From: Eledone cirrhosa
Lineage: Eukaryota
Direction of reading: 5' to 3'
Length of the DNA: 64,000 nt
Assembly: GCA_964016885.1 (NCBI GenBank)
Contig: OZ024742.1
Coordinates: forward strand, 217,186,001 to 217,250,000
Shown: piece by piece, positions 2,615-64,000 of the stretch
How positions within the stretch are numbered: the first letter of the stretch is position 1
Layout: every line of letters starts with the position of its first letter
Notes under the pieces: model-generated
Databases searched by the model: none
Told to the model about the DNA's origin: nothing
Seen by the model: only the letters and a program-made list of their open reading frames with translations
Made by a program: the position numbers and the translations under genes

Positions 2615-2663
2615 CTTATTACTCAGGAGTTTCACCTGTGTACTCATAGGATCTTCAGATAAG
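2615..2663 (-). ncRNA. Type-I hammerhead ribozyme, left arm of a palindrome
   Basis: CUUAU CUGAAGA U CCUAUG AGUA CACAGG U GAAA CUCCUGAG UA^ AUAAG: stem I CUUAU/AUAAG, intact core, GUA site, one mismatch in stem II. Confidence 0.75.
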
Positions 2664-3045
<382 letters not shown>

Positions 3046-12980: not shown

Positions 12981-13107
12981 GAAGGGGCTGATATGTTCAG
13001 GAGGTGTGGAGCTGCCCAGCTTTGATGAGGGCAGGGTGGCAAAGGTCGAGGCTTGGGATTTCCTAAGTGTCCTTCCAGAACTTTTGAGTAGCGGTGTAAA
13101 TGGTTAC
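12981..13107 (-). CDS. MBTPS1: Site-1 protease, penultimate coding exon
   Basis: catttgtag|GT acceptor, TC|gtgagt donor; 127 nt, phase 1-2. Encodes (G)[41 protein letters not shown](S), close to recalled human [27 protein letters not shown]; phases join both neighbouring exons. Confidence 0.96.
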
Positions 13108-13675
13108 CTACAAATGAATGAGAGAGAAGACAAAAAATTGAAATTCTAAAATATCTCAATCAATATCACAATCAATATCCAAGTACAATGGTTAGGATTC
13201 CTGGCTTTCACCAAGGCAGTGTTGATTCAAATTCCAGCATGAGAATAACATTTTAAAGTCAGCACCTCAACATGAATACAGGACACTTGCTGGAACTGGT
13301 AAAAGTGATACATAACATATTGCCATGCGTGACATAGAGTGTATTTGATGTAGATTATTGGTAAAATATCTGCAGGGTGTGAATGTCTGCAAAGTATTAA
13401 TATATGTAACATGGGTCATATGACAATAAAAAGAGTGTTGCACAGTAATAATGTGATATAGGTCATTGATATAATGTCTGTAAAATTTGATATGGATTAT
13501 TATTATAGTAACTATTGAGTATGATACAGATATCACTGTTGCAATGTCTACTGGGATAATAAAACACAGATCAGTGATTCATCTTTAGAACTTGATATAA
13601 ATGTTCAGTAACATATCTAAAGTAAACAGTGATATTTGTGTACAGTGAATGAGATGAGTCATTGAAAGAATATGT

Positions 13676-15508
13676 TGAATATGAACAGATATTACTGGTA
13701 TAATGTCTGTAGACTGAATATGAACAGCTATTACTGGTATAATGTCTGTAGACTGAATATGAACAGATATTACTGGTATAATGTCTGTAGACTAAATATG
13801 AACAGCTATTACTGGCATAATGTCTGTAGACTGAATATGAACAGATATTACTGGTATAATGTCTGTAGACTGAATATGAACAGACATTACTGGTATAATG
13901 TCTGTAGACTGAATATGAACAGATATTACTGGCATAATGTCTGTAGACTAAATATGAACAGATATTACTGGTATAATGTCTGTAGACTAAATATGAACAG
14001 ATATTACTGGTATAATGTCTGTAGACTAAATATGAACAGCTATTCCTGGTATAATGTCTGTAGACTGAATATGAACAGATATTACTGGCATAATGTCTGT
14101 AGACTGAATATGAACAGCTATTACTGGTATAATGTCTGTAGACTAAATATGAACAGATATTACTGGTATAATGTCTGTAGACTGAATATGAACAGATATT
14201 ACTGGTATAATGTCTGTAGACTGAATATGAACAGATATTACTGGTATAATGTCTGTAGACTAAATATGAACAGCTATTACTGGTATAATGTCTGAAGACT
14301 GAATATGAACAGCTATTACTGGTATAATGTCTGAAGACTGAATATGAACAGCTATTACTGGTATAATGTCTGTAAACTGAATATGAACAGATATTACTGG
14401 TATAATGTCTGTAGACTAAATATGAACAGCTATTACTGGTATAATGTCTGTAGACTAAATATGAACAGATATTACTGGCATAATGTCTGTAGACTGAATA
14501 TGAACAGCCATTACTGGTATAATGTCTGTAGACTAAATATGAACAGCTATTACTGGCATAATGTCTGTAGACTGAATATGAACAGCTATTACTGGTATAA
14601 TGTCTGTAGACTGAATATGAACAGCTATTACTGGTATAATGTCTGTAGACTGAATATGAACAGCTATTACTGGTATAATGTCTGTAGACTGAATATGAAC
14701 AGATATTACTGGCATAATGTCTGTAGACTAAATATGAACAGCTATTACTGGTATAATATCTGTAGACTAAATATGAACAGATATTACTGGTATAATGTCT
14801 GTAGACTGAATATGAACAGATATTACTGGTATAATGTCTGTAGACTGAATATGAACAGATATTACTGGCATAATGTCTGTAGACTAAATATGAACAGCTA
14901 TTACTGGTATAATGTCTATAGACTAAATATGAACAGATATTACTGGTATAATGTCTGTAGACTAAATATGAACAGATATTACTGGCATAATGTCTGTAGA
15001 CTGAATATGAACAGATATTACTGGTATAATGTCTGTAGACTGAATATGAACAGCTATTACTGGTATAATGTCTGTAGACTGAATATGAACAGCTATTACT
15101 GGTATAATGTCTGTAGACTAAATATGAACAGATATTACTGGCATAATGTCTGTAGACTGAATATGAACAGCTATTACTGGCATAATGTCTGTAGACTAAA
15201 TATGAACAGCTATTACTGGCATAATGTCTGTAGACTGAATATGAACAGCTATTACTGGTATAATGTCTGTAGACTGAATATGAACAGATATTACTGGCAT
15301 AATGTCTGTAGACTAAATATGAACAGATATTACTGGCATAATGTCTGTAGACTGAATATGAACAGCTATTACTGGTATAATGTCTGTAGACTAAATATGA
15401 ACAGATATTACTGGTATAATGTCTGTAGACTGAATATGAACAGATATTACTGGTATAATGTCTGTAGACTGAATATGAACAGATATTACTGGTATAATGT
15501 CTGTAGAC
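13676..15508. repeat. 39-bp minisatellite, 47 copies
   Basis: Unit t(g/a)aatatgaacag(a/c)tattactgg(t/c)ataatgtctgtagac; span 1833 = 47 x 39. Confidence 0.97.
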
Positions 15509-15637
15509 TGAGTATGATACAGGTCCATTGTACACTAACAGCACCATGTGTGTGGTATGGATGAGTGGTATAACACCTTTATGTGAACGCTATAATCATT
15601 GATATGATACCATTGAGTGAAGATAACAACGAATGGC

Positions 15638-43088: not shown

Positions 43089-43211
43089 CTTCCATTCTTT
43101 CTGGTAGATTCACTCTAGGCCAAGAGGATCGCTTTTCATAACCTTGAAATATTGATGGCAAAGTCTTATGAGCAGTATATTCCAATAAAGCTTTTAACAA
43201 CCAAAAGCAAT
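43089..43211 (-). CDS. MBTPS1: Site-1 protease (SKI-1/S1P), third-last coding exon
   Basis: ttttttacag|AT acceptor and G|gttaat donor; 123 nt, phase 1-1. Encodes (D)CFWLLKALLEYTAHKTLPSIFQGYEKRSSWPRVNLPERME(G), matching recalled human S1P DCFWLLDALLQYT...PERMEG. Confidence 0.95.
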
Positions 43212-46200
43212 CTGTAAAAAAAAAAAATAAAACATGTCAGTAATCTAAACACCTCACACATGCAATTTAATGTTATTTTTATTCAAAGGTTCTGGCAAGA
43301 AATGTCATTGCCAAGCATAAGCAAATACAAAGAACCATTCTCCAGTGGCATAGCAGTACCAATAATTCATACAATCATACATACATCTATATGAAATGTT
43401 GGAAACCAGAGGAGGTTCCAAAAACTTGCTGGTGAAGGTGATCAAAACAAAGTTAAGGAAAAAAATGGAGAGAGTGAATTAGAAACATTATACAAAGAGA
43501 TTTGTAAAATTGTCTAAACATAAAGATATATAATTAATACACAGTAAGTGTAACAAGATATAAATAAAACAAGGTATATACAGATACATTAAGGGTTGTC
43601 CACAGATATGTACTCTCGAGTTCCAAATAATGAGGGGGGGGGGCATTTGCTTAAATTCTTATAACTGTGCGGGAGGAGGGGAATAAACGGGGGGGGGGGG
43701 GGGGGGGGAATTGGTAATTGTATAGTGTGTGTTCGTAAATATGGGATTTCTTGTAATGTTCTTTATTTTTTACATATATAATGTATTTTTAATATCAAAT
43801 AAAATTATTATTAGATTCCCCAGCTGCTGTATCGATATGAATTACTTACAATAAAATTTGGCCAGAGATAGATTAGCAAAATTAAATGGGCAGGAGAGGG
43901 GGGGGGGGGTTAATCTGAAAAATGAATAAGCGGGAGGATGATTACTCAAGACCTGAAAGTAATTGAGAACCCATTGGTTAGGTTCTGCTAGAGGATGCCA
44001 CATCCCTGTCTGCTTAGCACTGTTTTTACAGGGATTTGGTGCACACAAAATTGCCCAGTAACATCTTTTGCATGCAACAAGATGTAAAGAAGTCCATGTC
44101 CACTGAATAATACAGTTTTAGCTGGTAATAGTACACTAGTATTGTTTTCCCCAAATGTCATTTGTGTGTCTTGTATATTCAAGTTCTAACTGGTTTTCAA
44201 CAATTTGCATATCTAGGTTATATCCATCATATCACAACCACAGTTCATTCATGAGGCACTGATTTGACTTTTGAACAATTGAATTACATATTGCCGTTCT
44301 TGTTCCTTTCTTGAATTTTGTGTGTCTTTAGATTAATCTGGATCCTCTTCCCCCTTTCTTTTTTGAACTTTCACACTTTCTTCAGGCTTCTATTGCACGT
44401 CTATTGTCACAAGATGATAGAGTGGTGTTGTTGGTTGGAGGAGGGGAGGGCTCCTAATTGTTACTTCTGGAACTGAGAACAAGGCAGTTTCTCCGATCAC
44501 TTTCAGTGCAGCTTGTTGTTGCTGATGAGCACACTACTAAATCAACTATCTTCAAACCCGGAGAGCCAATGGGCTTTGCCAAATTTAAAATGTCCAAGAT
44601 GCTGTATGTCACAAAAGTATCTCTACGACCCCACCAGGAGTTGACACCATATTAAAATTGACTGATTTTCAGCTGTCATCAGGTGTCTTATACCTGTGTA
44701 CATAGTACTGTGTGTGTGTATGTTTGTATGTATGTGTGAACCCATAACTCCTAATGAAGTTGTAGGGGGTGTTGTAGTGTCATACAGTGTTTCTTGGGAA
44801 TTTTTAAAACTTGGAAGAGCCCATCACCTCTCCAGGTTTGAACACAGCCTATTTCTTCCAGAGAAAGAGAGAGTGATAGAGAGAAGTGAGAAAGAGATAT
44901 ATAGGAAGAAATGACCACAGTACTGAACTGGTACTTTTTTTTATTGACTTCAAAAGGATGAAAGGCAAAGTTGACTTCGGTGGGATATGAACTCAGAATA
45001 CAGAAGGCTGGAACAAATACCACAAAGCATTCTATCAGTCATACTAATAACCCAGCCAATTCCCCACCTACATAGTACTATGTACACATTCTGAAGTCAC
45101 CTGATGATAAACCTATCGAAACAGTGTCTAGATCATCATCATCATCACCGTTAAATGACCATTTTTCCACGTTGGCATGGGTTAGACGAGTTATCATGTT
45201 GTGAGCAATGCCAGGTCAGGTGACCATGTGTTGCTCATACAAAACTGATTTTGGCTTGATTACTACAACTGGACGCCTTCCTAACACCAAGTACATTTAC
45301 AGTTAGTACTGTAGATGTAAATATTAAAACATCTCTAATGGCAAGAGGTTAATAGTTTTTTTTAAATGCTCATTTTATTAACATATACTCAACTCAAAGA
45401 TTTAGCTATTTAAGGTGAATTAGTGTTAACATGGTCAGACGAGGATTTAGGACCCACTAACATCATGTTTTCCCAATGAGCATCATTAATATAGTCTCCA
45501 ACCCTCATTAGTGAAGATGGGAAGAGACCAGACCAGCGTTAACATATTTAATGTCTAGAACATGCATTTAATTTCAATTTAATTTACTCAAACCAAGCGA
45601 GGTATTAAAGCCACTGAAATGCAAAGGGTTACTGATTAGGGAGAAGGACGAGAAATGGCAATTGATGTTACTTCTGCAAATTGTAGTGATCAAAAAAGCA
45701 AAAAGGTTGGAAGAGAATTCCATATATAAGATGTATGAGAGATGAAACTATCAAAATAGAATGTGTGATTACATTTAGGAACTTCAACTGCAGAGGGGTG
45801 AGACATAGCTGCAGATCTGGTACTTCATTTAAACTCATGAAGACAAGGCAACAATGAAGAAAGCTCATCAGAACAATTTCCATGAAAATATTTATAGAAA
45901 AGACACAGAAAGGCAACATTTTGACAGTGTGATAGTAATTAAAGCCAACATGATATTATGCATGTATTCTCCAATAATATACACTACCTAGCTCAAAAAA
46001 AAAAAAAAGAAAGAGGTTCTACAAATATTCTATAAGCTGTAAAATATCTACTTTAAATCTTTTGCATATTTCATAATTTGTAAACTTGTCAAACCTATTT
46101 CAACATGGGGATTTAAAAGCAACAACAAAACTAAAAAGTTAAAAATAAAAATAAAATTAGACAGGGGGAGGGGTGGAATGATTAATTGCATACTAAACAA

Positions 46201-47028
46201 AGCACTGAAAAGGTTTTCTTTACTTTATTTTGTCTAATATTCATGTCAGTCAGTATATCTGATAGTTGAGGAGTAAACACAGTTGATGTAACACAGTCCA
46301 GACATTAAGTGAAATCTTAGCACCAGTCACAAGAGAAATCAATTCCTCTTAATTTGATCATTAATCAAAATAGCTGTGACTGACTCGAAATCAAACAAAG
46401 TGTGAGGTGGGGGGGGGGGGTGTAAAGAATGGTAAAGATGAACAAGTAAGAGAGAAAAGAAGATATAAAATGGGAATAAAAAAGATGCCCAGAGCAAATA
46501 GAAAGCAAATACATTCCTAAATCAAAGCAGGAATTATAAAAATTATTTTTATTTTTATTTATTCATTTTTTTTTCAAATAAACATTTTAAGGTAAACTGT
46601 AAAACTAAAAACAAACTGCAAAATTGTTTCTAAGGTAAATTGTGTGAAACTATTGAGTTAAACTGAAAAATTATTAAATCACATTATTAAAATCATGGCA
46701 GTTAGTTCAAGAAACAGCAAGACACCAGTATCATGACACTATGGTACAAGTTCCAATCCTGCCTAATCAAAAGAAATTGTTACCAAATACTATCATTAGT
46801 TTCACTGTTAGAGAAGAAAATTGGTTGGAAACGATACTGCACTAGAATGTCATCCATTCCATCGGAAGTCAATAAAATAAAGCAGCAGTTTCCACCACCT
46901 AATGTCTAGACACCTCTACAGTCTTTTACAAAAATGAAAGGATACATTGGATGACATAGTTGGAGACAGACTATCAGAAACAATGAAGTGGTCATGGTGA
47001 GAACAGTTTTGGTAACAGATCATATAAG

Positions 47029-47445
47029 CATCACGACAAACAGCACCCAGTCCACACTGAAAAGTGGTCGTGTAGGCATCACGACAAAAAGCATCCCGTT
47101 CACACTACAAAGTGGTCGTGTAGGTGTCACAACAAAAATCACCCAGTCCACACTGTAAAGTGGTCGTGTAGGTGTCTCGACAAAAAGCATCCAGTCCACA
47201 CTGTAAAGTTGTCGTGTAGGTGTCACGACAAAAAGGACCCAGTTCACACTAAAGTGGTCGTGTAGGTGTCACGACAAAAAGCACCCAGTACTAACTGTAA
47301 ATGAGGTTGGTGTTAGGAAGGGCATCTAGCTGTAGAACCCAGTTCTGTATGAGCAAGACATGGTCACCTCACCTAGCTTTGCCCACAACAGGACAACTCG
47401 TCTAACCCATGCTAGCGTGAAATAATGGACGTAAATCAGTGATGA
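47029..47445 (+). mobile_element. RTE-tailed short element with ~5.6 x 48-bp internal tandem repeat
   Basis: Unit tgtcacgacaaaaagcacccagtccacactgtaaagtggtcgtgtagg, then gttaggaagggcatc module and RTE tail cccatgctagcgtg..ggacgt. Related copies at 9040-9215, 27605-27892 and 30870-31200. Confidence 0.8.
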
Positions 47446-48694
47446 TAATTTGTTTATTGTACATTTCAAACATGTTTGAATTCCCTCACTCATACTTCTT
47501 TTCCTTCATTATCCCTTACTCAGCCATAATACCTCTCCCTCATTCAACCAAACACATACACTCCTTCCCTTACAGTTACATATGCACACACATACATACA
47601 CAAACCCCTGCACTCAATCAATCCCATATCCACACAGTTTCTCTTTCACAATCCCTCCTTCATTCAACTAACCACACGGGCTGCCATATACCATCACTTA
47701 ATTACACACACACTCACTCACCCAAACATATATAAACTCATACTCCATCCTTCGCCCAGCCAATCACATACTCCCACTTTCAGTCACAGACTCTCACTCC
47801 AACAATTACATATGCAAGCATGCACAAACACACACACAATCACATATGCAAACAATCTCTCTTACACACACCTCCACTCATGCAATCACATGCACCCACT
47901 TCCTCACTCACACACATACTCAGCCATAGCTACATACTCTCCATTTAACAATACTCTCCATGTCTATAATTTATGCCTTATAATGAGATCAATTCACAGT
48001 ACTCAATATTTTCATACAGATATCAAAAACCACAAATTTTAATTATATTTTATTTAAATTTTGTTACAAAAAGCTATCGTTATTTAAAACAACAAACAAC
48101 AAAACATCTTTAAGTAAACTTAAATCATGGAATATTGTTGTTTTTGATGGGGGGAGGGGGTCAGTTAATTCAAATAGAAATCTCTTAAACAAGTTAATTG
48201 GCTGAATATTAAAGAGCGAAACATAACAAAAAATAAAGTTCAAATATGCATACACACACTAACTTCAAACAAAATTCTTTGATTTCTTTCCTACACATTA
48301 AAACACACATGCATTAAGAAAGATCATAAATATAATTAGAACAAAACACACACAGACATTACCTATAGAGCACATACATAAAACTCATGCAGAAATACTA
48401 ATGCACACATGTATACGTATGTAGATGAATGTGCATTAGAAAGATTATTCCTCTAAAATACTAAGATAATATAACTAATTTGTTTCAATTAAATTCCTCA
48501 TTAAAAATGACGAAAATATCTAATATTCAGCACCTGAGTTTTGAAACAACATTTTAAACTTTATTTATTTATTATTGTTATTATTTTCATCATTATCATC
48601 ATCATCAAATATCCACCAAAATAGAATCTCATGAAAACTAGCTATAATACTAATGACCTAACAGAATATCAAAGATCAAAAAAGCAAAACTTAA

Positions 48695-48928
48695 ACCCTT
48701 TTGATACCAAACCACTTGAAACTACCCCTGGTTCTATGATACAAAACTATTTGAGAGTGTTTATACTTATCTAAAAAACCTATCATAAATTTATGTGAGA
48801 AACTTTAAGTTGTGTTCCACACACCAGTTTAATAATGATAAAGTTACAAAATCCCTCAAAATTCTTGATTATTTTCTAACAATTATAGGCAATGTGTCTC
48901 TTTCATTAGAAATATGGTAACAAAAGGG
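48695..48928. mobile_element. piggyBac-type MITE (second family)
   Basis: ttaa acccttttgatacc...ggtaacaaaaggg ttaa; partial copy at 49961-50300. Confidence 0.65.
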
Positions 48929-49229
48929 TTAAGTGTTGGAAATATAGTTTCTCATAAACCTATTATACTGATGAGAGACAAACCTAAGACAAACTTTACC
49001 ATACAATGAGGGGAGAAGAATATTGGACAGATCATCACACAATATTAACAAAAGTCAGATTGCATGTATGCTCCTTACAACATTCAAGAACACCAAACAC
49101 TCAATGCTTGACAATCTCAATATTAATAAGAATTTTCATCATTCTCTAGCTGTCAAACTGCAAGTTTCAAAGCCACACATCACCTCAAAAGCTTTACACT
49201 ATGAGATGCTATTGAAGGCTATCAATAAG

Positions 49230-49560
49230 CTCAGATCTGAACTGATCACTGAACTATAGTATACTGATGACAATGTTTTGGCAACTTACACTCTGGATGC
49301 TCTACAAACCACCATCTCAGGAGTTGTTACAGCTGGCAATTAATAGCCAGAAAACTAGGATCATCTGTCCATAGCAAACTATACCATGATGGTACAACAG
49401 CAACAACTAACTGCATTTTCATAATTCAGATACGTAGGCAACATAATTTCTGATGACTGCACATTGGACAATGAGATTCTAAACTGCCTCTGACAGGCTT
49501 CTGTAGGCTTTGAAAGTCTCAGAAAGGGTTTTTTCTAAAAATCACAATTCTCATATGCCA
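49230..49560 (+). mobile_element. Degraded RTE (BovB-like) RT fragment
   Basis: ITEL*YTDD..LQT..INSQKT..FRYVGNIISDDCTLDNEI..QASVGFESL. Confidence 0.6.
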
Positions 49561-50084
49561 GACAGTTAGTGTATGGGTGGTATAAGCCATGGACAATATA
49601 CAGTTGACACAGTGAAGTCTTTGAGGTCTTTAGCAACCATAAACATTTAAGTGCATGTTTGTTTAGGTGTAGGTGTGCATGTGTGTTTAGGTGTAGGTGT
49701 GCATGTGAATATACACATATTCTCTTCTTGCAGATTCATTTGAGTTCTTGCTGGTCACTAATAAAATGGCATAGCATTTTTGTTTAAGTTAAAACAGTTC
49801 CTTCTTTTGTGAATGTGTGTGTAAAAATGTAGGTGTATAGATATACTTACACACATGTAATGAATGTATATGTGCATGTGTTGCTGGTATCCTGTAGCTT
49901 GTGAGATATGTATCAAAACACAACTTTTGGCTGACATGAGTGTCTATTCCAAATTTCTATTTAACCTTTTTCATACCAAACCACCTGAAATCCCTCATAA
50001 TTTTACATTACAAAGATATTTTAAAGTGTTTATATTTATCTAAAAATGTTACTTTATGTAACAACCAAATGCCGACTTAATAAT

Positions 50085-50272
50085 TGTTTCTACTTTTGGC
50101 ACAAGGCCAGCAAATACCCAGTGCATTACTGGTACTTTATTTTATCGACCCCGTAAGGATGAAAGGCAAAGTTAACCTCGGCGGGATTTGAACTCAGAAT
50201 GGCAAGGGCCGTAACTCTATGTGTCAAAGCATGGCATCCGACCCTCTACTGATACTGCCAATCCACCGCCCT
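50085..50272 (-). mobile_element. Full-length tRNA-derived SINE (same family) with 18-bp TSD
   Basis: TSD aaatgc(c/t)gacttaataat at 50067-50084 and 50273-50290. Other copies at ~1400-1507, 44915-45068, 53999-54187, 57950-58160 and 61650-61765. Confidence 0.88.
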
Positions 50273-50302
50273 AAATGCTGACTTAATAATGATGAAGTTA
50301 GT

Positions 50303-53155
50303 TCATCATCATCAACGTTTAACGTCCGTGTTCCACGCTTGCATGGGTTTGGACGAGGGTTTTCCCACTTGAGGCAAGAGTGATTGTCTTGCTCGCATAG
50401 GACTGTCTGGCAGGTTTTCTACAGTTGGATGCCCTTCCTAACACCAACCACATTTACAGTGTGGGTCTGGGAGGTTTTTACCGTGTTGCCTACACGGCCA
50501 CATTATAGCGTGGACTGTGTGTTTTTTTGTCGTGACACCTACACGATCTCATTTGTTTTGGCCTGGATGGTGTGGCACCAACATAACTTTACATAGAAGG
50601 GGGCGGTGTGGATGGGGTGGGGTGGGGTGGTGGGACGGGGGTGTATTTTGTTAGAGATGCCTACTGACTGTAGTAGGTTTTACTATGTATTTAGGTAAGG
50701 CGGGTCTTCTCTATTACTGAGTACCGCTAAAGGTCTCGGTCCAGTGACATTGTCTTGGAGAGGTGTAAGTGTGTGAGGTCGGAGTTTATTAGCTCGTCCC
50801 AGGTTTTTCTAGGTCTGCCTATTCCGTGGCTACCGTCTATCTTTATTGCCCTTCACTTTGTTATACAGCTATCGACTTTCATGCGCATCACGTGTCCATA
50901 CCAACGTAGCCTTCTCTCGAGTAAACAACATCTGATCTCTCTTATTTCTAATTTTTTCCTTAGTTCGTTTATGCTTTGCCGTTCACGTATATTACTATTA
51001 CACATCCAGCGGAGCATGCAAGCTTCGTTCCTCTCTAGTCTGCGTATATCCTCTGCACACAATGCCCAGGTCTCACTGCCATGCAACATTGCTGTTCGTA
51101 TGCAGGCATCATACAACCTGCCTTTCGTTTTTAGGGAGAACCCTTTAGCGGCTAATAGTGGTATAAGCTCTCTGAACTTTTTCCATCCAGTTCTGACTCT
51201 AGCTACTGTACTTTCAGAGCACCCTCCCCCACTGCTGATTTTGTCACCCAGGTAACGGAAGCTGTCCACTATTTCTATAGAGCCCTCTGCGCAGTTGAAA
51301 GAGCTAGTATTTTGTGGGCACTTGCTGCTACTTATTGCACCAGAGCACCGGCCACATGTGAAATCTATGTTCTTAGTTAGCTTACCTGTGATCCCACTAC
51401 ATCTTTTATGCACCCATACTTTGCATTTCTGACACAAAATGGAGTTTCTACCTACGCCTTTCCTACACACTGAGCATGGCCACTTCCCGGAAGGGACCGC
51501 CGCCTTATTTTCTTTCCTACAAACTAGAACTTTGGTCTTAGCCAGATTAATTTTAAGGCCTTTTGATTCTAGGCCGGGCTTCCATGTTTGGAATTTCTTC
51601 TCTAGCTCGGCCATTGATTCAGCTATGAGTGTTAGGTCGTCTGCGTATAGGAGTTCCCATGAACTCCTCTGTTATAGCCTGAAGGGCAATAATAAATAGT
51701 ACGGGGCTGAGAACAGAGCCCTGATGGACGCCAACTTTTACGCTAAACTCTTCACTATATTCGTTGTTAATTCTAACCTTGCTGACTGTTTCTTTATACA
51801 TGGCTTGTATAGCTCTCACAAGCCATTCGTCGACACCTAGTTTTCTAAGGGCCCACCAGATAATGGAACGGGGGACTCTGTCGAAGGCTTTCTCCAAGTC
51901 GACAAAAGCTAAGTAGAGGGGTTTACTTTTAGCTAGGTACTTCTCCTGTAGTTGTCGTACAATGAAAAGAGCGTCTGTGGTACTTTTGCCCGACACAAAC
52001 CCGAACTGCATTTCATCTAGGTCAATTCTCTCTCTGATTAGTTGCACTATTACTTTTTCCGTGACCTTCATGACCTGGTCGATTAATTTAATGCCTCTAT
52101 AGTTACTCCTATCTAGGGCTTCTCCTTTACCCTTATAACAGTTAACGATGATGCTGCTATGCCAGTCCTTCGGAACAACCCCATTCTGTACGACTTGGTT
52201 AACTATCCGGGTGACCATGGTGTGTCCCACCGTGCCAGATGCCTTCAGCATCTCAGCAACTATTTCCGAAGGCCCAGCCGCCTTACCCGTCTTCATATCC
52301 TTGATTGCCTTACTTATTATACTACCCTCTACTAACACTGCTGGTCCCTCTATTGGGTCGATGTGGGGGAGACTGTCTTTCTCCCATTTATTCTCCTCAT
52401 TTAGTAGCTTTTCATAGTGACACTTCCAAGCTACCTTCTTATCAGCGTCGGTGATGGCAAGTACGCCGTCATCATTAAGTACACACTTCTCCCCGACAAT
52501 ATCACGGTTTTCCTTGGCACATTGCCTAGCAATCCTGAACACCTCACGTTTTTGGTCCTCGCGTTGTAGAACATGCTTGAACTTTCTTTCCTCTGCTTCC
52601 CTTCTTGCGAAGTACACTTGTCTCCTAGCTTCCCTCCTGGCCACTTGATAGTCTTCTCTACTTCCCCCATCCCTCCATACTTTCCAAGCCTGCTTTTTGG
52701 CCTTAATTGACCCCTCCACCTTACTGTTCCACCACCATGTTACTCTCCTCCTGCCTACAGGCCTGCTCCAGCCACAGACTTCGTCTGCCACCATCAGCAG
52801 GTTTGCTTTCCGGAATTCCCACTGTCCCTCTATATTGTCCGACTCTAAATGCTCTTCCTTACTGTCGAAAGCATCAAGTAATATGCTTTGGAATTTATTT
52901 CTGGCTGTGGGGGTCCTTTAGCTTCCATATTTTTCTCCTGAGGATAGTCCTCTTCTGCTGTCGAGTACGTCTCGTCCTGACTATGAGGTCGCTAATTATC
53001 AGTCTATGTTGGGAGGTGCATTCTTCATGGGGGAGGGATTTAGTGTTTACAACAGACACTCTGTCACGTCTTCTGGTAAGGATATAATCTACCTGGCTTG
53101 TGTGTTCCCCGGATCTATAGGTGATCAAGTGATTGTCACGTTTTTTGAAGTTATA
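50303..53155 (-). mobile_element. RTE-clade LINE (related PHD-bearing family), 5'-truncated in the APE domain, disrupted
   Basis: TYRSGEHTSQVDYIL/SQHRLII (APE C-term) and RT motifs. Frameshift near 52920, 14-nt deletion of KTGCP before WELLYADD (~51660), stop at 50853. Long 3'UTR ends in a (GAT)n tail. Confidence 0.93.
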
Positions 53156-53524
53156 TTACTAAATTCTACCAACATTCTTGATTGTTTTGAAAATGATTTT
53201 AGTAGCGAAAGTAGATGAGTTAAGCTACCCGTAAGTCATCGATGAGATGTACACTCAGTGAACCTATTCAGAAGTTACTACACTTACTCTCAAGATCTAA
53301 TTATTTTTATTGCTATTTTATTACTATTTAGTAGGTATTGTCTGAGTGATATGATGTACTAATTGTACTGACTTTATGTCTCTTCCTCTATCCCTCCATA
53401 TAACAGATTCTATTAGGGTAATTATTGATTTGGAAATTACCAGTGATGGTTAATATATTCCTAGTATTCATATCCAAGTAACAGATCTCTTCATAGGTCT
53501 AATCTAGTATATGAAATGCTGATA

Positions 53525-53980
53525 CTACCACTGCCACTGAACAAACATTATAGGATATGGTCTTATTGAATGCAGACAGCTCTGACTTCCGTGCCTTCTA
53601 AAACCTACTGATGTATTCCTTTGTCACTCTAGCTTTACACACAGCACTAATGTATGCACTATTCTCATTAAATCCAAGATATTTGTATCATTCATCATTA
53701 GAGACAGGGGAGATAGAAAATTCATTGATATATTTATCCATCATCTCATCAAGAATCTTTCCTCAAATAACTATTAAATATGAACATTTATCTATCCTGA
53801 CCAAACTACATCCTTATGTCCCATCTAACTATCTCAAGAGGTCAGGAATATCACCTGAAGACAACTTCAGGTCATTAACAAAAAAGGTATGGGTGATATT
53901 GATTTTCCTCTTCAGCAGATCCTAACATGTAATCTGGACACTTCCTCAATAAGGATGATAAAGGATTCACTGCCAGGCAA
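53525..53980 (-). mobile_element. Degraded R4/Dong-like non-LTR retrotransposon RT fragment
   Basis: Minus strand reads CLAVNPLSSLL..ITHTFFVNDLKL..YKYLGFNE..KEYISRF*KARKSELSAFNK, with stops and frameshifts. Confidence 0.65.
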
Positions 53981-53998
53981 TTAACATTATAAATTATA

Positions 53999-54187
53999 GG
54001 GCAGTGGATTGGCAGTATCGGTAGAGAATTGGACACCATGTTTTGCAGCGTAGTTACAGCCCTTTATGATCCGATTTCAAATCCTGCCGATGTTAACTTT
54101 GCCTTTCATCCTTACAGGTTCGATAAAATAAAGTACCAGTAATGCATGGGTAATTGCTGGCCTTGTGCTAAAAGTAGAAACAATTAT
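53999..54187 (+). mobile_element. Full-length tRNA-derived SINE (same family)
   Basis: gggcagtggattggcagtatcggtag...tttcaaatcc...gcctttcatccttacagg...aaaagtagaaacaatta. Confidence 0.85.
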
Positions 54188-54194
54188 AAATTAT

Positions 54195-55510
54195 TGTCTC
54201 CTCCTTTTTCTTCATTACCGACTTATTCCTGACAGGGTCATGGGAGCAGAGTCCTCAAACACTCCTTCCAGCAGGCCCTGTCAGAAGCAGCCATCTCCAA
54301 CTAATCTTGCTTGGAGCCTACTCTTGGGTCCCCTGCTGGTTGAGTTTGCCCATAATATCTGTCCAGCAATTCTTTCCCGAGACATTCTAACCACATCCCC
54401 ATAGTATCAGAGCTGTGATCTCTCAATTCAGAGAAGTAGTGGCTCTACCTGGATTGACTCTCTGATCTCCGAGCTACGCACTTTATTGAGCAATGTTACT
54501 CCAAAGACTCTTCAGAGGAATCCCATTTCAGCCGCTTGTATTCGCGATCATATTCTTTCAGTCATTACTCAAGACTAGCAGAAAAACCACCCTTCGGGTG
54601 GTTTTCTGCTAGCATCTGTAGTGTACATATTGATATTATACGCAAATATATATGCATGTAGATATATGTCAAATAAAATCATAATTGAGAATATGCACAG
54701 AAATTGAAGAGAGACTGTGTTACACTCTCTTCTGCAATCAGTAAAGTAATCCATGATACATTTAAAAAAGACAATATTATATATAAACTGCATTAGGAGA
54801 AAATTAGCAACGGAAATATATGTGATATTTTATAAGTGTTATAATATAACCGGAAGTGTTGACATTTGAAAATTTTAAAGAAGGGAATCTTTAAATAAGC
54901 AATAAAATATATTTAATCAACAGTTACGAAATTTAGTACATAAATTATGTAATATTTATATTTAGTACATAAATTTAGTACATAAATTATGTAATATTTA
55001 TATTTAGTACATAAATTATGTAATATTTATATCCTTATTTATTCAAAGTAATCCAACTTATTTTAAACGGGGTAAAAAAATATATTCTGGACGCAGTCCC
55101 GCACTCCTTTATTATAATTAAGATTCATGACCACATGTAAAGGTTGGCACAGAAAACAAATTGAAGACAGCGAGTTTGGCTTTTACACCTACTTCCTGTC
55201 TGATTACTGCACCAGCTTTTGCAATTCTTGCACCTAATTCAGCTTCTTGCACCTACTTGAACTTCTCAATCTGCTTTAGTGGAACTCCATTCACATGTAG
55301 AGTGCACTGTGTAGGCTTCCTTGAGAGGACTAGTGTCTCAGTTTTAAAGCACTGATTTTCATTTCAGCCATGCAGCACTCGGCATCAAATCTATCAAGTG
55401 CATGTCAGAGATCACCTTCTGTTGAGTTAAGTAATACCATGTCGTCTGCAAATTCCATCTGACTGATTTTACACTTGCCAGTCATGATATCACTTCCAAC
55501 ATGGCTGCAC
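54195..55510 (-). mobile_element. Degenerate RTE LINE 3' part (second family), split by the Helitron
   Basis: Homologous to 38254-39119 and 9355-9820; continuous across the Helitron. Confidence 0.8.
54575..55123 (-). mobile_element. Non-autonomous Helitron (549 bp)
   Basis: Minus strand begins TCTTAATTATAATAAA and ends with hairpin gcagaaaaccaccc-gaa-gggtggtttttctg plus CTAG. Inserted between A and T of an RTE copy (catgaa|tcttgag; uninterrupted at ~9391 and ~38720), no TSD. Confidence 0.88.
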
Positions 55511-58500
55511 ATTATATATTGTGAGATGGAATGTTCCCAGTTGATAACTTAATTCAGTATGTGACTATAGTTCCTTTAATTTTTAGAGACAGCTGTGTGG
55601 ACCATGATGAATTCAGTTTATTAATAGCATCGATTACAGCACATAGTAAGTTCTGTGGTAAGGTGTAGTGTCCATGATTGAGGACAGAACCAAACACCTT
55701 CCTACAGTCTAGTGATACTGAAAGTAGACTATATACGTGTGTATAGATGTACATATGCATGCATATATGCACATATGTATGTGTGTATGTATGATATTGT
55801 GTGTATGTCTATGTATGAATATATATATATATATATATATCAATCTATGTATCAATTTATGTATGTATTAATCTGCCTATGTATGTAGTGTCAATTTATC
55901 TATCTATCTATTTATCTCACTGTTTGTCTGTCTGTATATCCCAACTATTCAGTAGTCTATCTATTTAAACAACATTTTCTTGTCTCTGTCTACTTAGCAG
56001 GAAAAGAGGAACAGACCCATTTCATGTCACCGTGCCAAAACAAAACAGACATCAATCAAAAATAAAACATCAGAAACACAAAGAATTAAAATAATCAGTA
56101 AAAAAACAACCACCTAGACTGAAATAATTAATGAATGTGAAAAAAAGAAAAACAGAAATTAGGACAGCTAGTGCAGCCATCAATAAACTCTTGACTGGAA
56201 TAACAGGAAATTTTAAGCTGGCAACAATGAAAGTTAAAGGTCGATGAAGATAATGAGGTCAAAGTATGAAACTCAGGAAATATACTATGTTAGAATTATT
56301 TCTTTTTTTATCTCCATTTATTTATTATATCACTGCCTCCATAAGATTATGTATGCTTCTACTAATTTCCATGGCATCAATTTTAATGATGTTTCTAATG
56401 CCACAAAGAGCTACCTTCTCATGATTTGATGGTACCTAGCTAGATCTAGTTTTGTTAAGTTCAGTAGCTGAGATATGAAAGATACATAAATCTCCATGGA
56501 TAAGGATAGGGTGCCCAGTCTATTGATGTTCTAAAGCTGATGTTTCCAGACGACCCACTAAATTATTCCAAACATCTAGGTTGACATATGTAAACAGAGT
56601 TGTGAGGATCTTATGATTGCAAACCTGACTTCTTAACCACTCAGCCGTACCTGCATCCACATAACTATATTAGTAATAATATATAAGACAATCAAAATAG
56701 AGAAGAATAGATGAAAGTATACATACAATAGTGGAGTTGGGAATTAGGAAGAGCTGATGATGACGATGTGTATTTATATATAAATATATATCATCACTAT
56801 TGATTTTACATTCACTTTCCCATGCTGGCATGGCTTGGGCAGAATGGTTTGAGACAACGTTTTCCAGCAAGATGCCCTTCCTGATACCAACTATTTTAGT
56901 TACCTCTTGTAACATGCAGAAATACAGTGTACCAATTTTAAAAACTGGGATACACACAGCATAGAGTATCAAAATCCTATACTAAGGACAATTTCATTGA
57001 CTGTACCTTCCCCAAAACATACGACCTTAGAAATCATTCATATGCTTTTCATCATCACTAAAGGTGTTAGATTGTGTTCTTGGTTCTTACACTTAATTTT
57101 ATGGGCTTCCGTTCATTTAACTGTTGGGAAAAAGTGCCTACTGAAATTCTCAGAATATGCCTCATCCCATGCAAGGAATGATTTTAAAAAACCTCCCCAA
57201 TGAAAGGAAACATTTTACATAAAATACAAAACAAATCTATCATCTGTAACCAGATAATGTTTATCAACGAAAACATCATCTCCATCTTCTTCATCGTTTG
57301 TACAGCTATTTTCCATGCTGACATGAGTTGGACTAGATGAGTCTGAAGACCATACCATGATCATAAGCTCTATTTTGGCATGGCCTCTACAGCTGGATGC
57401 CATTCCTATCACAAACCACTTCACAGAGTGTAGTGGATGCATTGTTCATAACAAATGTAAATGGAATGGAAACATAATAAATGAAAGCAAATTGCTGTAA
57501 AAAAAAAAAAAAAAAGATTTAAAGAACCAGTCTTTTACATCATCTTAGTAATGTGTTATATATTTGGGGCCTTGATATAGCTGGTTTCCCATCATGACAG
57601 GAACCTGCTAGCCTCAACTGTGGTGACGGGAAGCACCCAGATGGAATAACTTTTCTTGCTCGAAGAGGGTAAATCTCTAATCTGGGAGGTCACATGCTGC
57701 AAAACATTATCTGCCTCCAACCTTGTTACTTCAGTTACAAATTTGGGCACTGCAGCCCATAACACAGAAGAGTGGAGAATATCCAAATACCAGAACTTGA
57801 CCAACCACTTCCTTTACACTCTAAAGTGGTTGGTGTTAGGAAGGGCATTCAGTATAAAGGGCGAAAGGGTCAAAATATGGTTCCCTGACCAGTTCAACCT
57901 ATCCCAGTATGGAAAACAGACATAAAATTATTATTATTATTATTATTGGATTAGCAGGGTCATTAAAGCATCAGACAAATACTTATCAAAATTCATTTTG
58001 GCTCTGTACATTCTGAGTTTAAATCCCTCCAAGGTTAGCTTTGCCATTCATCTTTACGGGGTCAATAAAATAAAGCACCAGTAACATACTGGGGTTGATT
58101 TAATTGACTTTCTCCTCTCCAAAAAATGATTGCCCTTGTGTCTAAATCAGAAACTATTATTATGATTATTATTGTAAAGAGGTTATGGTAATGGAGTAAG
58201 AGAAATAGTAGCACACCCTTTAAGTTGAAATCTTGCCCAGGTAAATTTTGCCTTTCATCCTTCAGGAGTCAATTCAATAGGTAGCAGTCGAGTACCGAGG
58301 TTGATTTCATTTATTGTACCTACTACCAAAAGTTATGACCTTGCGCTAATGGTAATCATTATCTGCAGCAACAATGTATCATTAAAAAATAACCTGTGGT
58401 TACTGTGTAACCTCCAGTTAATCCTCATGAAAATGTGGCATATAAGCTGTTAGTTAAATAACTAGCTGTACTCCACAGGTTCATTGTTATAGATATAGCA

Positions 58501-58518
58501 TACCATACTTCCAACTAG

Positions 58519-58930
58519 TCATCATCATCACCACCACCACCATTCTATATCTACTTTTCCATGCTTGCATGGGTTGGATGGGTCACATTCCTTTGTCGTC
58601 TCCTCTCTGAAATTCAGCAATTTATAATCAGCTCTCAATACCTCTGCCCAGGTGTTCCTTGGTCATCCTCTACCACAGCTTCTTGGTACTTGTTTACCAA
58701 GTGATCATCATTCATATGCATCACATCTCCAAACCAGTGCAGTCTTTTTTCTTGCACACTTCATCTGTTTCCTTTTATACCTAATTTTTCTCTCAGTTTA
58801 GTCATGCTTTGTCATGCATATAAACATTGTGCATCCATTGAAGTATGTGCATTTCATTTCACTCAAGCCTTCACATATCCTCTGCATTTACTAGCCATGT
58901 CTCACAACCATGCTACATCACATACACGTG
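58519..58930 (-). mobile_element. Degraded RTE LINE 3' end
   Basis: Reverse homology to 22430-22870, including the tail. Confidence 0.7.
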
Positions 58931-59231
58931 TCACACAGCTCGCCTATCATTTGTTATATACATTGGCATATGATGATTTATAATATAAGCAACAGTATGG
59001 TGGCTCTTTGTCTTTGGATTAGCTTGTGTCATGTTCCTATTTAATCCTCCCAATACATTCCCTTGGATTGCAGTCACATGGAGAAATATAGATTTTCTTC
59101 TCCAAAGATATGAAGACGGCAATGCATGTGAGAGATGTCAACTGTCCCAATCAACCCAGTTTCACTTGTGAAATGAGAATGTGTGAAGTTCATGCATGAC
59201 AAAACAATACAAATGGGTCTTCCAGCTGTTC

Positions 59232-59540
59232 AATCTTCTTCTTTGAGAGGGTCATGGGGACAGAGTCCTCAAACACACCTTCCAGCAGGTCCAGTCAGAA
59301 GCAACCATCTCCAATTGATCCAGCTGGATCTCCAAGCGAAACCAGCCAAGCTCCTGGATGTTATACAACCATCTTCCTTGTGGTTTACTCTTGGGTCTCC
59401 TGCCGGTTGGTCTTGCCTGTAAAATCTGTCCAGCAATTTTGTCCATGTGTCCTTAATATCAGAGCCATCATCTCTCAATTCAGTATAGTAACGACTCCAC
59501 CTAGAGCGACTCTCTGATCTCCGAGCTACGCACTCAATCA
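59232..59540 (-). mobile_element. RTE LINE 3' fragment (second family)
   Basis: Homologous to 54230-54490 and 38820-39100 (ILQARPTGRRPKSKP). Confidence 0.75.
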
Positions 59541-59949
59541 ACTGAATTAATTCATTGAATTATAGAGTAAATGGCTGATCATTTCACTGATATTTATACC
59601 CTTAATGTAATTTTCAAACAGAATCAGCATGACACAGTGTGTGGTAAAGATGACCCTTTGGATTAAAGATACAATCCATCTGATGGGTCCCCCCACACTT
59701 TCAGTCTACCAAATTCCACACACAAACCAAGTGTCAACCTGAGTTTATAGTAAATGATGGCACACAGAGATTGAACCCTTCACTATATGACTGCAAAATG
59801 AACCTTTTGAGCCCACTTGGCTATGTCTGCACCCATAAAAGAATATATACTATAATAGAACATACAGGGAAATAATTTCTTTCAAAACAAAGATTATATC
59901 AGGATTCAGTACATTTTAATAGATGAGAAACATATCCTTCCATTGACTG

Positions 59950-60850
59950 TAAAGTGACACCAAAGACTTAAATGAAGAATTTAGTGTGCACATAGTTGTC
60001 CATCAGTGCTCATTTCTCAGTCGCCTCCTGTTTACTAGAGTTCTCCAGGTCTTAACAGAAATGCTTAAGACCAACTATATATGGAAATTACTGTATGCTG
60101 ATGATTTAGTTCTCAAAGCTCAATATGTTGTCTAGTTAGAGAAGAAATTCCAAATGTGGAAGCAAAACCTATATTAAGAAGTTTCAAAGTAAAACTAGGA
60201 AAGACAAACTTTTAGATAGCAAGAAAGACAAGAGTCTACTGCCATCTGGAAAGCGGTCATGTTCAATATACAGAAAAAGAGTAAGTAGGAATTCTGTCAA
60301 CTATGGGTACACAAGTATAGTGGTAACGTATGCAGTCTGAGTAGGAAAACTGAACACACATGAAATGAATTTGTAGTATAGATTCACCCCATCTTTGGAC
60401 ACACCACAGAAATTAATTTGCTTTGTCCATCGAAAATCCTCTCTCTGTAAAAGATATGTTTATCCTTGAGTGACGTCCCTTTATATGCTCAGAAAGTGCC
60501 CTAGAATCAGCCAATAGCTTCTGTGATTTAAGCGACCGAATTAGCAGAGGAGAGGGTGTTGTGAAAGCATAGTAGCCAAAGTAAGAATTGGGTGGGGAAT
60601 TCCATCTTCATGTGAATGGCAGATTGCATGATGCTTATGAATGGAGTGCAATATTGCATAGTAGTAAAATATGAACATCAAATGCAAATGATGTAAGAAA
60701 GCTGCAAAAAAATGAAGTGAGCACACTTTATTTGATGTCCAATAATAGTGAGCACAAATGAGCTGAAAGAAAAACTGGGTATAATCAAAAGTAGTATGCA
60801 AGATAGAACACTGTGCTGAAAAAGACATGTGATGGAGAACAGACATCTGG
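59950..60850 (+). mobile_element. Highly degraded RTE LINE RT fragment
   Basis: WKLLYADDL, EKKFQMWKQ and PSGK remnants collinear with 21720-22640. Confidence 0.7.
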
Positions 60851-62572
60851 CTGAATAACTGTACTAGAGAGCAACTCTAGAAAGTTCCATTTATTCAAAT
60901 TACTATGTACAGAAGCATAAAACGAAAGATAGTGGAATATTCAGAGCAGAAATAATTATCATAACTATCTCCATCTGTAACAGCAGTGTTAGTAATAGTG
61001 ACAAAAATGGTGTATACTAAACTACAGGGAGTTGTACAGCAATATAACCTACTGACATTTTTTTCTCCTTATAACTTGCAAAAGATAAATAACTTAATTC
61101 ATTCACATATTTGATGGTGGTACTATGCTAAACCCAGGAGGATAAAAATCAATACAAGTAAGAATATTGAGTTAACACCAAGTAAAAGTAAGCAATTCAC
61201 TATATGATTCTGAGTTTCTAGACATGATTTCAGACCATCATAAAACCTATTCCATTAACATTATTTTAAATTCTAATGCTCTTCAAACAACATACAACCA
61301 ATAACTATTGAAAGAAAAAAGAAACTGAAGTTTGAGGTTGCATTCATGATACAAAAGTCAAATAACTAAAGTAACAACATTTTTTTTCTTTTTTTAACTC
61401 TAATACGATAGAAAAGACACCAAACATTAGTCTTCACTACCCATGACAACTGAACTCTTTAAACACTTCTATGAACTCTCTTATTAAATAATTACTGTTG
61501 TACACCATCATTAGCTTCCACAGGTCCCAAATTCCACCATCGACTCCAAAGAATACATGTACTACATTACCATTCAGTTAATCCTAACACAATCCTTTCC
61601 CAATTACATTCATACATATACTCTCTCTTCTTTAATTGACAGTGTCATTAGAGTGTCAGACAAAAACTCCTGGTAGTATTTCTTCCAGCTCTCTCTACTC
61701 CGAGTTCAAATTCCTTTGAGGTTAACTTTTCTTTTCATCCTTTCAGGATTGATAAAATAAAGAACCATTCCAAGGGCAGTGAATTGACAGAATTGTTAAA
61801 GCATCAAACAATATGCCTTGTGGTATTTGATCCAGTGCTTAGCATTTTGTGTTCAAATCCCACTGTGGCCGACATGAGTCATAAACTTAAATTTGCCACC
61901 ACCCAGCCCTTGGATACCTTTAGCAGGATCCACTCTGTTATAAGTATCATTTCGGTCAGGTTTTCTCCAGTTTGAGAATGCCTTCCTTCCTCCCTCTTGA
62001 ATACCCTAAAAAGATCATAGGTATTACACTTCTCTCCTTGAATAAACAGCAACAAAAGAAAAATTACCTTTGTCATTGCTCTCTCACTCTTCTATTCACC
62101 TACTTTGTCACATTAGCCTTGAACAAACGGAGAACAAAATAGAGAAGATTCCTTAGTCTTGCAGAGTACAGGGTAACCTCTCTGGTGCTGGTGATATGAT
62201 AAAATGTACACAGTACATTCTATAAAGTGGTCAGTATCCAACAACCTTCTGATTGATAGTCCCCTAACCTGTAGGTGACATACCTTCACATTACATATAA
62301 TAATATAATATATGTATATGTATATATATATATGTAAGTATGCATGTATACGTACATACATATATGTATACAGACGTACAGTAGCATGCACATATATATA
62401 TATATATACATATATATATACATATGCATACAGGTACACATACATATATGCACGTATCAGTTTAGCGGCGCTAACGTCGCTTTGTTCGTTTGTAAACAAA
62501 CTGAACAGCCTGAATTTATGCCATACGGTGTTAAGGCAACCACGTCACCTTTTTGTTCAACACTGACACAGG

Positions 62573-62617
62573 AACGATGTACTAGTTTCAAGCTTGTTAG
62601 CTATCATCAGCACCGTT
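62573..62617 (-). ncRNA. Minimal type-I hammerhead ribozyme, array copy 1
   Basis: AACGGUG CUGAUGA U AGCU AACA AGCU U GAAA C UA G UA^ CAUCGUU: 7-bp stem I, canonical core, 4-bp stem II plus U.U, palindromic stem III ACUAGU. GUA cleavage predicted between 62580 and 62579. Confidence 0.9.
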
Positions 62618-63038
62618 TACCCATCTGCCAGATAGTTGAACGTTCGAAAGTATATACTTTCCTTATGAAAATTAACGGCTGAGCAGCCTAATTTGCATAT
62701 TGAGTGAGTTAAATCGGTCAGGCATACCGAAAACGATAAATTGAAACAAAATGAAAACGAAATTTCATTTCTCACTCTTAGTATGGCACTTACTTAAATG
62801 TAAGTATGCATGTATACGTACATACATATATGTATACAGACGTACAGTAGCATGCACATATATATATATATATACATATATATATACATATGCATACAGG
62901 TACACATACATATATGCACGTATCAGTTTAGCGGCGCTAACGTCGCTTTGTTCGTTTGTAAACAAACTGAACAGCCTGAATTTATGCCATACGGTGTTAA
63001 GGCAACCACGTCACCTTTTTGTTCAACACTGACACAGG

Positions 63039-63083
63039 AACGATGTACTAGTTTCAAGCTTGTTAGCTATCATCAGCACCGTT
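63039..63083 (-). ncRNA. Minimal type-I hammerhead ribozyme, array copy 2
   Basis: Same sequence as 62573-62617, +466 bp. Confidence 0.9.
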
Positions 63084-63504
63084 TACCCATCTGCCAGATA
63101 GTTGAACGTTCGAAAGTATATACTTTCCTTATGAAAATTAACGGCTGAGCAGCCTAATTTGCATATTGAGTGAGTTAAATCGGTCAGGCATACCGAAAAC
63201 GATAAATTGAAACAAAATGAAAACGAAATTTCATTTCTCACTCTTAGTATGGCACTTACTTAAATGTAAGTATGCATGTATACGTACATACATATATGTA
63301 TACAGACGTACAGTAGCATGCACATATATATATATATATACATATATATATACATATGCATACAGGTACACATACATATATGCACGTATCAGTTTAGCGG
63401 CGCTAACGTCGCTTTGTTCGTTTGTAAACAAACTGAACAGCCTGAATTTATGCCATACGGTGTTAAGGCAACCACGTCACCTTTTTGTTCAACACTGACA
63501 CAGG

Positions 63505-63549
63505 AACGATGTACTAGTTTCAAGCTTGTTAGCTATCATCAGCACCGTT
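63505..63549 (-). ncRNA. Minimal type-I hammerhead ribozyme, array copy 3
   Basis: Same sequence as 62573-62617, +932 bp. Confidence 0.9.
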
Positions 63550-63970
63550 TACCCATCTGCCAGATAGTTGAACGTTCGAAAGTATATACTTTCCTTATGA
63601 AAATTAACGGCTGAGCAGCCTAATTTGCATATTGAGTGAGTTAAATCGGTCAGGCATACCGAAAACGATAAATTGAAACAAAATGAAAACGAAATTTCAT
63701 TTCTCACTCTTAGTATGGCACTTACTTAAATGTAAGTATGCATGTATACGTACATACATATATGTATACAGACGTACAGTAGCATGCACATATATATATA
63801 TATATACATATATATATACATATGCATACAGGTACACATACATATATGCACGTATCAGTTTAGCGGCGCTAACGTCGCTTTGTTCGTTTGTAAACAAACT
63901 GAACAGCCTGAATTTATGCCATACGGTGTTAAGGCAACCACGTCACCTTTTTGTTCAACACTGACACAGG

Positions 63971-64000
63971 AACGATGTACTAGTTTCAAGCTTGTTAGCT
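63971..64000 (-). ncRNA. Hammerhead ribozyme, array copy 4 (cut by window edge)
   Basis: 3' part (stem II, GAAA, ACUAGUA, CAUCGUU) is present; the CUGAUGA core would lie just past 64000. Confidence 0.75.

What the first reader, a model, noticed from the sequence alone, without database searches (positions are those of the whole stretch)
43212..64000. Sense-oriented self-cleaving array inside a giant intron of MBTPS1
Seen: exon 43089-43211 is internal. I found no upstream S1P exon (expected ...YGDSNCLD...) in 43.2-64 kb, so the array should be intronic and its HHRs are on the transcribed strand. Inference: each nascent S1P pre-mRNA would carry >=4 self-cleavage sites. The host promoter would drive retrozyme RNA production, and splicing would have to survive co-transcriptional intron scission (exon tethering), or the cleavage could dampen S1P output.
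Basis: inference. Interest (0 to 1): 0.75.

Follow-up and report, generated by a model that had tools for sequence, protein, structure and literature searches.

The report
Self-masking ribozyme palindrome in MBTPS1 intron
This repeat really lies inside a long intron of an octopus housekeeping gene, but it is one half of a 12.7-kb mirror-image insertion of a very common jumping element, so its likely self-cutting RNA motifs are predicted to be zipped shut by their own mirror copy rather than to cut the gene's RNA.

Summary
The upstream MBTPS1 exon lies 25.9 kb beyond the window, so the 466-bp hammerhead array is inside a 46,644-nt intron. Beyond the window it turns round: 13.6 units with hammerheads on the transcribed strand, then 13.7 inverted units. 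Together they form a 12.7-kb palindrome with 2 mismatches in 6,326 bp. It belongs to a family with 10,384 exact ribozyme cores in this octopod genome. Such back-to-back arms with two fixed ends in (TA)n are the family's usual insertion form and match Penelope-type priming. Polymerase makes the antisense arm first, so all 13 sense hammerheads are predicted to be paired (-80 kcal/mol each, against -21 for a ribozyme dimer). The motif is also of the weak, likely dimer-dependent type. Most likely: a young passenger insertion that makes a long intronic hairpin, with little intron cutting. 'Sense-oriented' has no meaning for such an element. No cleavage, circular RNA or effect on MBTPS1 was shown. 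The equal arm lengths are unusual and unverified by reads.

The parts
43089..43211 (-). MBTPS1 exon downstream of the array (DCFWLL...PERME)
43212..64000 (-). 3' part of the 46,644-nt MBTPS1 intron. It continues beyond the window to extended position 89855 (extended = G000:C3 position minus 217186000); the upstream exon ending ..GDSNCLDNSHMLK is at extended 89856-90003
62332..64000 (-). Window part of the left (sense) arm: identical 466-bp units; outer end at unit position 251, in an AT-rich microsatellite. Beyond the window: the arm runs to extended 68671 (13.6 units); a 14-nt spacer at 68658-68671 is the palindrome centre; the right arm 68672-75056 has 13.7 inverted units with 13 complete hammerheads on +, antisense in the MBTPS1 transcript and made first, ending at unit position 310 (59-nt tail) before (TA)n
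62573..62617 (-). Type I hammerhead motif, last in the transcript; predicted cut between 62580 and 62579 (GUA|C); 19.4 kb before the acceptor
63039..63083 (-). Type I hammerhead motif
63505..63549 (-). Type I hammerhead motif
63971..64000 (-). Fourth hammerhead motif, cut by the window end (complete to extended 64015); nine more complete ones follow to extended 68209

Best explanation
This is a young, palindromic insertion of a high-copy non-LTR retrozyme family in an MBTPS1 intron, likely written by a Penelope-type reverse transcriptase, and its hammerheads are predicted to be paired shut in the host pre-mRNA, so that it likely behaves as a passenger that forms a 6.3-kb hairpin rather than as a cutter. 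Shown: intronic position, palindrome, family size, two fixed outer ends (unit positions 251 and 310), (TA)n target. Inferred: both ends of a cut in (TA)n primed cDNA on a circular or multimeric retrozyme RNA at the two start sites and ran round it about 13 times; the mirror symmetry here may come from fold-back of one strand. Predicted: in a back-to-back element either transcription direction meets the antisense arm first; the sense arm then zips from the 14-nt turn as it leaves the polymerase, before two hammerheads 466 nt apart can pair into the dimer they likely need. The intron stays mostly continuous and is spliced out with the hairpin.
For: Palindrome: (6,326-bp arms, 2 mismatches). Family: 10,384 cores; 1,091 exact copies of a unit-specific stretch. 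Architecture is family-wide: 30 of 54 other elements divergent, 0 convergent (one of the 30, L078, is a doubtful call); 22 of 28 complete inverted ones have one end at 230-256 and one at 300-311; 11 of 21 elements in 20 hand-picked young loci divergent, 0 convergent. Raw short reads of another individual show many opposite-strand joints inside the unit (run X21). Penelope enzymes extend both strands from two start sites that bound the 'tail' (PMC11167929, passages) and leave inverted 5'-truncated copies (PMC8557442, passages). Energies: monomer hammerhead fold -2.0 against -9.5 for a non-catalytic fold; double hammerhead -20.8; duplex with antisense -80.3; 594 pairs in 1,200 nt around the turn. 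Unit duplex -852 against -156 and -123 for the single strands. One-pair helix III and U.U in helix II go with 6-22% monomer cleavage in an hour in axolotl (PMC7229834). Antisense oligos block a nascent intronic ribozyme (PMC10919898).
Against: All masking evidence is equilibrium folding; no kinetics, no proteins, no tertiary contacts. The antisense arm folds on itself (-123 kcal/mol per unit) and could be protein-coated, leaving time for cleavage over the 19.4 kb to the next exon. The hammerhead core is conserved in 58-60 of 61 variants, with a G.U to U.G swap in stem I between subfamilies, so the ribozyme is probably active in its own life cycle. Equal arms are an outlier (ratio 0.996; 0.01-0.60 in 9 young inverted elements), and no listed contig bridged the centre (inconclusive). 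The partner Penelope element was not identified, and its presence rests on motifs read by eye, without Pfam support.
Confidence: 0.65

Rival explanations
1. One reading: the sense hammerheads fold and cut during transcription, because the antisense arm is tied up in its own structure or in protein. The MBTPS1 promoter then feeds monomer and circle production, and splicing depends on exon tethering or is dampened on this allele.
For: 13 intact sense motifs, 19.4 kb before the next exon; dimer fold is favourable on its own (-20.8); fast intronic ribozymes reduce splicing and slow ones do not (Fong 2009 as cited in PMC10919898); cut nascent RNA stays tethered to Pol II (PMC2288634).
Against: Every sense motif has a perfect or near-perfect complement already in the same molecule; weak ribozyme type; thousands of other copies could supply retrozyme RNA without this locus.
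Confidence: 0.2
2. The inversion is real but the symmetric 13+13 copy number or the centre is mis-assembled. If the antisense arm is shorter, some sense hammerheads would be free.
For: Identical 466-bp units are hard to count in an assembly; equal long arms were seen in none of the 9 young inverted elements; no listed contig from three runs of one sample spanned the centre.
Against: Flanks are different and collinear with the gene; the two ends are the family's 251/310 pair, which requires a turn somewhere between; no N gap; the right arm has two private differences. The contigs laid fit over at most about 60 nt and the table was cut.
Confidence: 0.1
3. The hairpin or the DNA palindrome, not cleavage, harms the allele: small-RNA-guided chromatin silencing, nuclear retention of edited RNA, or cruciform breakage lowers MBTPS1 output or deletes the insertion quickly.
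For: 6.3 kb of near-perfect duplex; large symmetric elements are rare among those sampled.
Against: Intronic inverted repeats are associated with essential, highly expressed genes in C. elegans (PMC6239182, abstract); an older inverted element persists beside the array; no expression data here.
Confidence: 0.05

Closest known systems
Metazoan non-LTR retrozymes (Cervera and de la Pena 2020, PMC7229834; Li, Clavereau and Pollet 2026, bioRxiv 10.64898/2026.07.22.740005)
   Same: Non-coding tandem units, one type I hammerhead each, 36% GC, thousands of dispersed copies; helix III and U.U features like axolotl Amex1 and Amex2; intronic copies are common (42-44% in Xenopus, though depleted for intron size).
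   Different: Unit 466 bp, just above the 150-450 bp range; insertions are often back-to-back with two fixed ends, which the passages I read do not describe ('inverted' 0 times in PMC7229834; 'palindrom' and 'antisense' 0 times in the preprint); RNA not shown here.
Penelope-like elements (Craig et al. 2021, PMC8557442; Frangieh et al. 2024, PMC11167929)
   Same: Inverted 5'-truncated copy, tail at one end only, two start sites, (TA)n targets with no readable target duplication.
   Different: No RT or endonuclease frame; arms are multimers of a small unit; tail 59 nt rather than 30-40 nt.
Intronic self-cleaving ribozymes such as Cpeb3 (PMC10919898)
   Same: Ribozyme motif on the transcribed strand of a long intron, kilobases before the next exon.
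   Different: Cpeb3 is a single HDV-like motif with measured activity and effect; this is a young multi-copy insertion with its own antisense in cis and no measured activity.

Membership tests
Non-LTR retrozyme | Short tandem units (150-450 bp), each with a type I hammerhead | tested here: met
   466-bp exact units with one motif each; size slightly above the published range
Non-LTR retrozyme | Hammerhead core and helices conserved across copies | tested here: met
   GAAA 58/61, UA 58/61, helix II pairs 95-98%, stem I pairs 1-6 87-97%; one two-sided swap. Rfam only sub-threshold. Copies were found by core similarity, which inflates core conservation
Non-LTR retrozyme | Low GC, non-coding, no LTR | tested here: met
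   36% GC; the 114-aa antisense frame of a near-identical copy has no Pfam hit; no LTR layout in 55 elements
Non-LTR retrozyme | High copy number, dispersed | tested here: met
   10,384 exact cores
Non-LTR retrozyme | Self-cleavage of the transcript | not testable with these tools
   folding energies only
Non-LTR retrozyme | Accumulation as circular RNA | not testable with these tools
   no run on record as RNA was listed
Penelope-type insertion | Inverted 5'-truncated arm adjoining the 5' end | tested here: met
   30 of 54 other elements divergent, 0 convergent
Penelope-type insertion | Two start sites with a tail at one end | tested here: met
   ends at 251 and 310 here; 22 of 28 and 9 of 9 elsewhere
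Penelope-type insertion | Shared pLTR or tail sequence with an autonomous partner | tested here: inconclusive
   two abundant RT/endonuclease-like families checked (12 and 15 loci); matches were only neighbouring or nested retrozyme copies
Autonomous Penelope-like element | RT plus GIY-YIG open frame | tested here: not met
   no such frame in the unit
Regulatory intronic ribozyme (Cpeb3-like) | Cuts the nascent host RNA and alters splicing; conserved at the locus | not testable with these tools
   no RNA reads and no relative genomes; 100% identical units point to a very recent insertion

The most novel reading that the evidence does not exclude
Back-to-back retrozyme insertions are self-muzzling: in any host transcript the antisense arm comes first. 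A symmetric one like this turns a housekeeping promoter into a constant source of a 6.3-kb hairpin RNA against a 10,000-copy family (small-RNA trigger and editing substrate), and introns tolerate an insertion only when the first-made antisense arm is at least as long as the sense arm.
Probability: 0.15. Interest if true: 0.65.

Novelty: new variant of a known kind. Interest (0 to 1): 0.3.

Why it matters
The two-armed layout links animal retrozymes to the Penelope double-priming chemistry, and gives a rule that can be tested genome-wide (arm asymmetry against host transcription direction). For MBTPS1 itself it is most likely a recent passenger; similar intronic and palindromic copies were noted elsewhere in this genome by earlier agents.

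Tried and rejected
DNA search of the own genome with the unit gave no candidates (common words are skipped); pattern search worked. Rfam: nothing at gathering score; AT-repeat miRNA hits rejected as composition. No RNA holder listed: no evidence on expression. Run X8 (same species label, kind not on record) holds unit variants but not the flank, skewed to the sister subfamily; not used as evidence. Centre check with contigs of X1-X3 and X8: no listed contig bridged it, pieces were short and the table cut: inconclusive. Search for a second copy of the left flank (empty allele) found only this locus. Editing scars: in copies at least 97% identical, outside the microsatellite, A>G 6 against T>C 16 on the ribozyme strand (p 0.056): no support for sense-strand editing. 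Near-palindromic junctions (offset up to 15 nt): 5 of 40 inverted elements, p 0.12: fold-back is not shown to be a general route. Partner Penelope element not found; Pfam did not recognise the candidate frames. No poly(A) signal or strong splice-site pattern in either strand of the unit by a crude regex. Fold-back read artefact rejected because the two flanks differ. Literature: 8 searches listed no title on octopus retrozymes or inverted retrozyme arrays (at most 20 rows of each were shown); supplements were not opened (preprint supplements are closed) and may bear on this.

Full report
Gene and position. The window is G000:C3:217186001-217250000. I fetched the next 200 kb and count 'extended' positions on from the window. 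A protein search with the exon at 12980-13144 returned site-1 proteases, the best from Octopus bimaculoides; Pfam confirms the MBTPS1 domains of P0002. tblastn of P0002 and P0003 maps the gene on the minus strand from about 166,463 to 8,107, in order. The exon before 43089-43211 is 89856-90003; residues are contiguous and the sites are GT and AG, so the intron is 46,644 nt. The host is an octopod by protein similarity; I did not identify it further.

The element. The 466-bp period is exact from 62332. It continues for 13.6 units to 68671, then reverses for 13.7 units to about 75056. The arms mirror each other over 6,326 bp with 2 mismatches around a 14-nt spacer inside a hammerhead core; this junction occurs once in the genome. 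There are 13 complete hammerhead motifs on each strand. Both flanks are AT microsatellite and differ from each other, so no target duplication can be read.

The ribozyme. Each unit has CUGAUGA, a four-pair helix II on a U.U pair, GAAA, a palindromic ACUAGU in place of helix III, and GUA|C closed by a seven-pair stem I. Rfam gives only a sub-threshold HH9 hit. Among 61 variants from fetched loci the core and helices are kept, and a sister subfamily swaps G.U for U.G in stem I. As a monomer the catalytic fold scores -2.0 kcal/mol against -9.5 for a non-catalytic fold; a double hammerhead scores -20.8. Axolotl motifs with a one-pair helix III or a U.U in helix II cleave 6% and 22% in an hour as monomers and much better as dimers (PMC7229834, section 15). 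Activity here is inferred, not shown.

The family. The 35-nt core occurs 10,384 times, the reversed control never; a sister core 5,030 times. I fetched the clusters behind the first 100 listed hits on C1: of 54 elements, 30 are back-to-back, none head-on, 24 single-armed (L078 is a doubtful call). Of 28 inverted elements not cut by a locus edge, 22 end once near unit position 251 and once near 310. In 20 loci I picked, favouring arrays, 11 of 21 elements are back-to-back and none head-on. Raw reads of another individual show many opposite-strand joints. So the inversion is biology, not a quirk of this locus. It matches Penelope elements: inverted 5'-truncated copies, a tail at one end, (TA)n bias (PMC8557442), and extension of both DNA strands from two RNA start sites that bound the tail (PMC11167929). 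Frames that look like Penelope RT and GIY-YIG endonuclease by recalled motifs are abundant, but Pfam did not recognise them and I found no partner sharing sequence with the unit.

What is unusual here. The arms are equal (ratio 0.996), against 0.01-0.60 in 9 young inverted elements; among the 28 of the first sample only short elements come near 1. Fold-back copying of one strand would explain it, but close junctions are not clearly enriched (5 of 40, p 0.12). Mis-assembly of copy number is not excluded; contigs could not settle the centre.

Consequence for the host RNA (predicted). In a back-to-back element either direction of transcription makes the antisense arm first. Here the antisense arm (about 6,385 nt) covers the sense arm (6,340 nt) except the 14-nt turn. 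Pairing a hammerhead with its complement gives -80.3 kcal/mol, and 1,200 nt around the turn fold into 594 pairs; a unit duplex gives -852 against -156 and -123 for the strands alone. Zipping can start at the turn, whereas a dimer needs two motifs 466 nt apart. I therefore expect a long hairpin and little cutting. Against this: these are equilibrium numbers, and 19.4 kb separate the last site from the next exon. If cutting happens, published work allows either outcome: tethering to Pol II (PMC2288634) or reduced splicing with fast ribozymes (Fong 2009 as cited in PMC10919898). No RNA data could be laid.

Context and score. Intronic retrozymes are common in Xenopus (42-44% of copies, depleted for intron size; preprint). 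Earlier unchecked notes on this genome report the same two-armed layout, other intronic copies and antisense masking; I had written these readings down before seeing them, and they lower the interest of this locus. Verdict: real, intronic, a variant of a known class, probably a passenger. Interest 0.3.

Papers seen: PMC7229834 passages and section 15; bioRxiv 10.64898/2026.07.22.740005 part 1 of 5 and passages; PMC8557442, PMC11167929, PMC10919898, PMC7761336, PMC2288634 passages; PMC6239182 abstract. Dye 2006 and Fong 2009 only as cited there. No supplements were read.

Noticed in passing
extended 75162-80100 (L002:1162-6100): An older back-to-back element 100 nt from the array: about 1.07-kb arms, 81% alike, with a different type I hammerhead motif (minus 75194-75253, plus 80008-80068); an endonuclease-like fragment and a LINE fragment sit in its centre.
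   Followed up: partly
window 2590-2990 and 3512-3948: Two small inverted repeats with hammerhead-like motifs on either side of a (TA)n run, next to a GIY-YIG-like fragment (label recalled, no Pfam hit) of a very abundant family, about 5 kb downstream of the last MBTPS1 exon.
   Followed up: partly
L118-L131; G000:C1:51772498-51793439: Sister retrozyme subfamily with units of about 420-430 bp, 5,030 exact cores, including a one-direction array of about 21 kb.
   Followed up: partly
run X4 laid on window 62439-62797: A run labelled as another organism holds one 470-nt contig identical to the unit at depth 7, with no variants; several other organisms' runs share 0.3-0.46 of the words. Cross-contamination is my guess; unexplained.
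   Followed up: no
window 50856-52917, minus strand: Reverse-transcriptase-bearing LINE fragment in the same intron, broken into two frames.
   Followed up: no
window 13676-15522: 39-bp tandem array, 47 copies, 95% alike, ending about 570 nt upstream of the second-last MBTPS1 exon.
   Followed up: no
L077 and L144: Inverted elements whose short arm is only the 41-60-nt tail, as expected if one primer stops at the other's start site.
   Followed up: no
young copies in L021-L151: T>C exceeds A>G on the ribozyme strand (16 against 6, p 0.056), which would be A>G on the antisense strand.
   Followed up: partly
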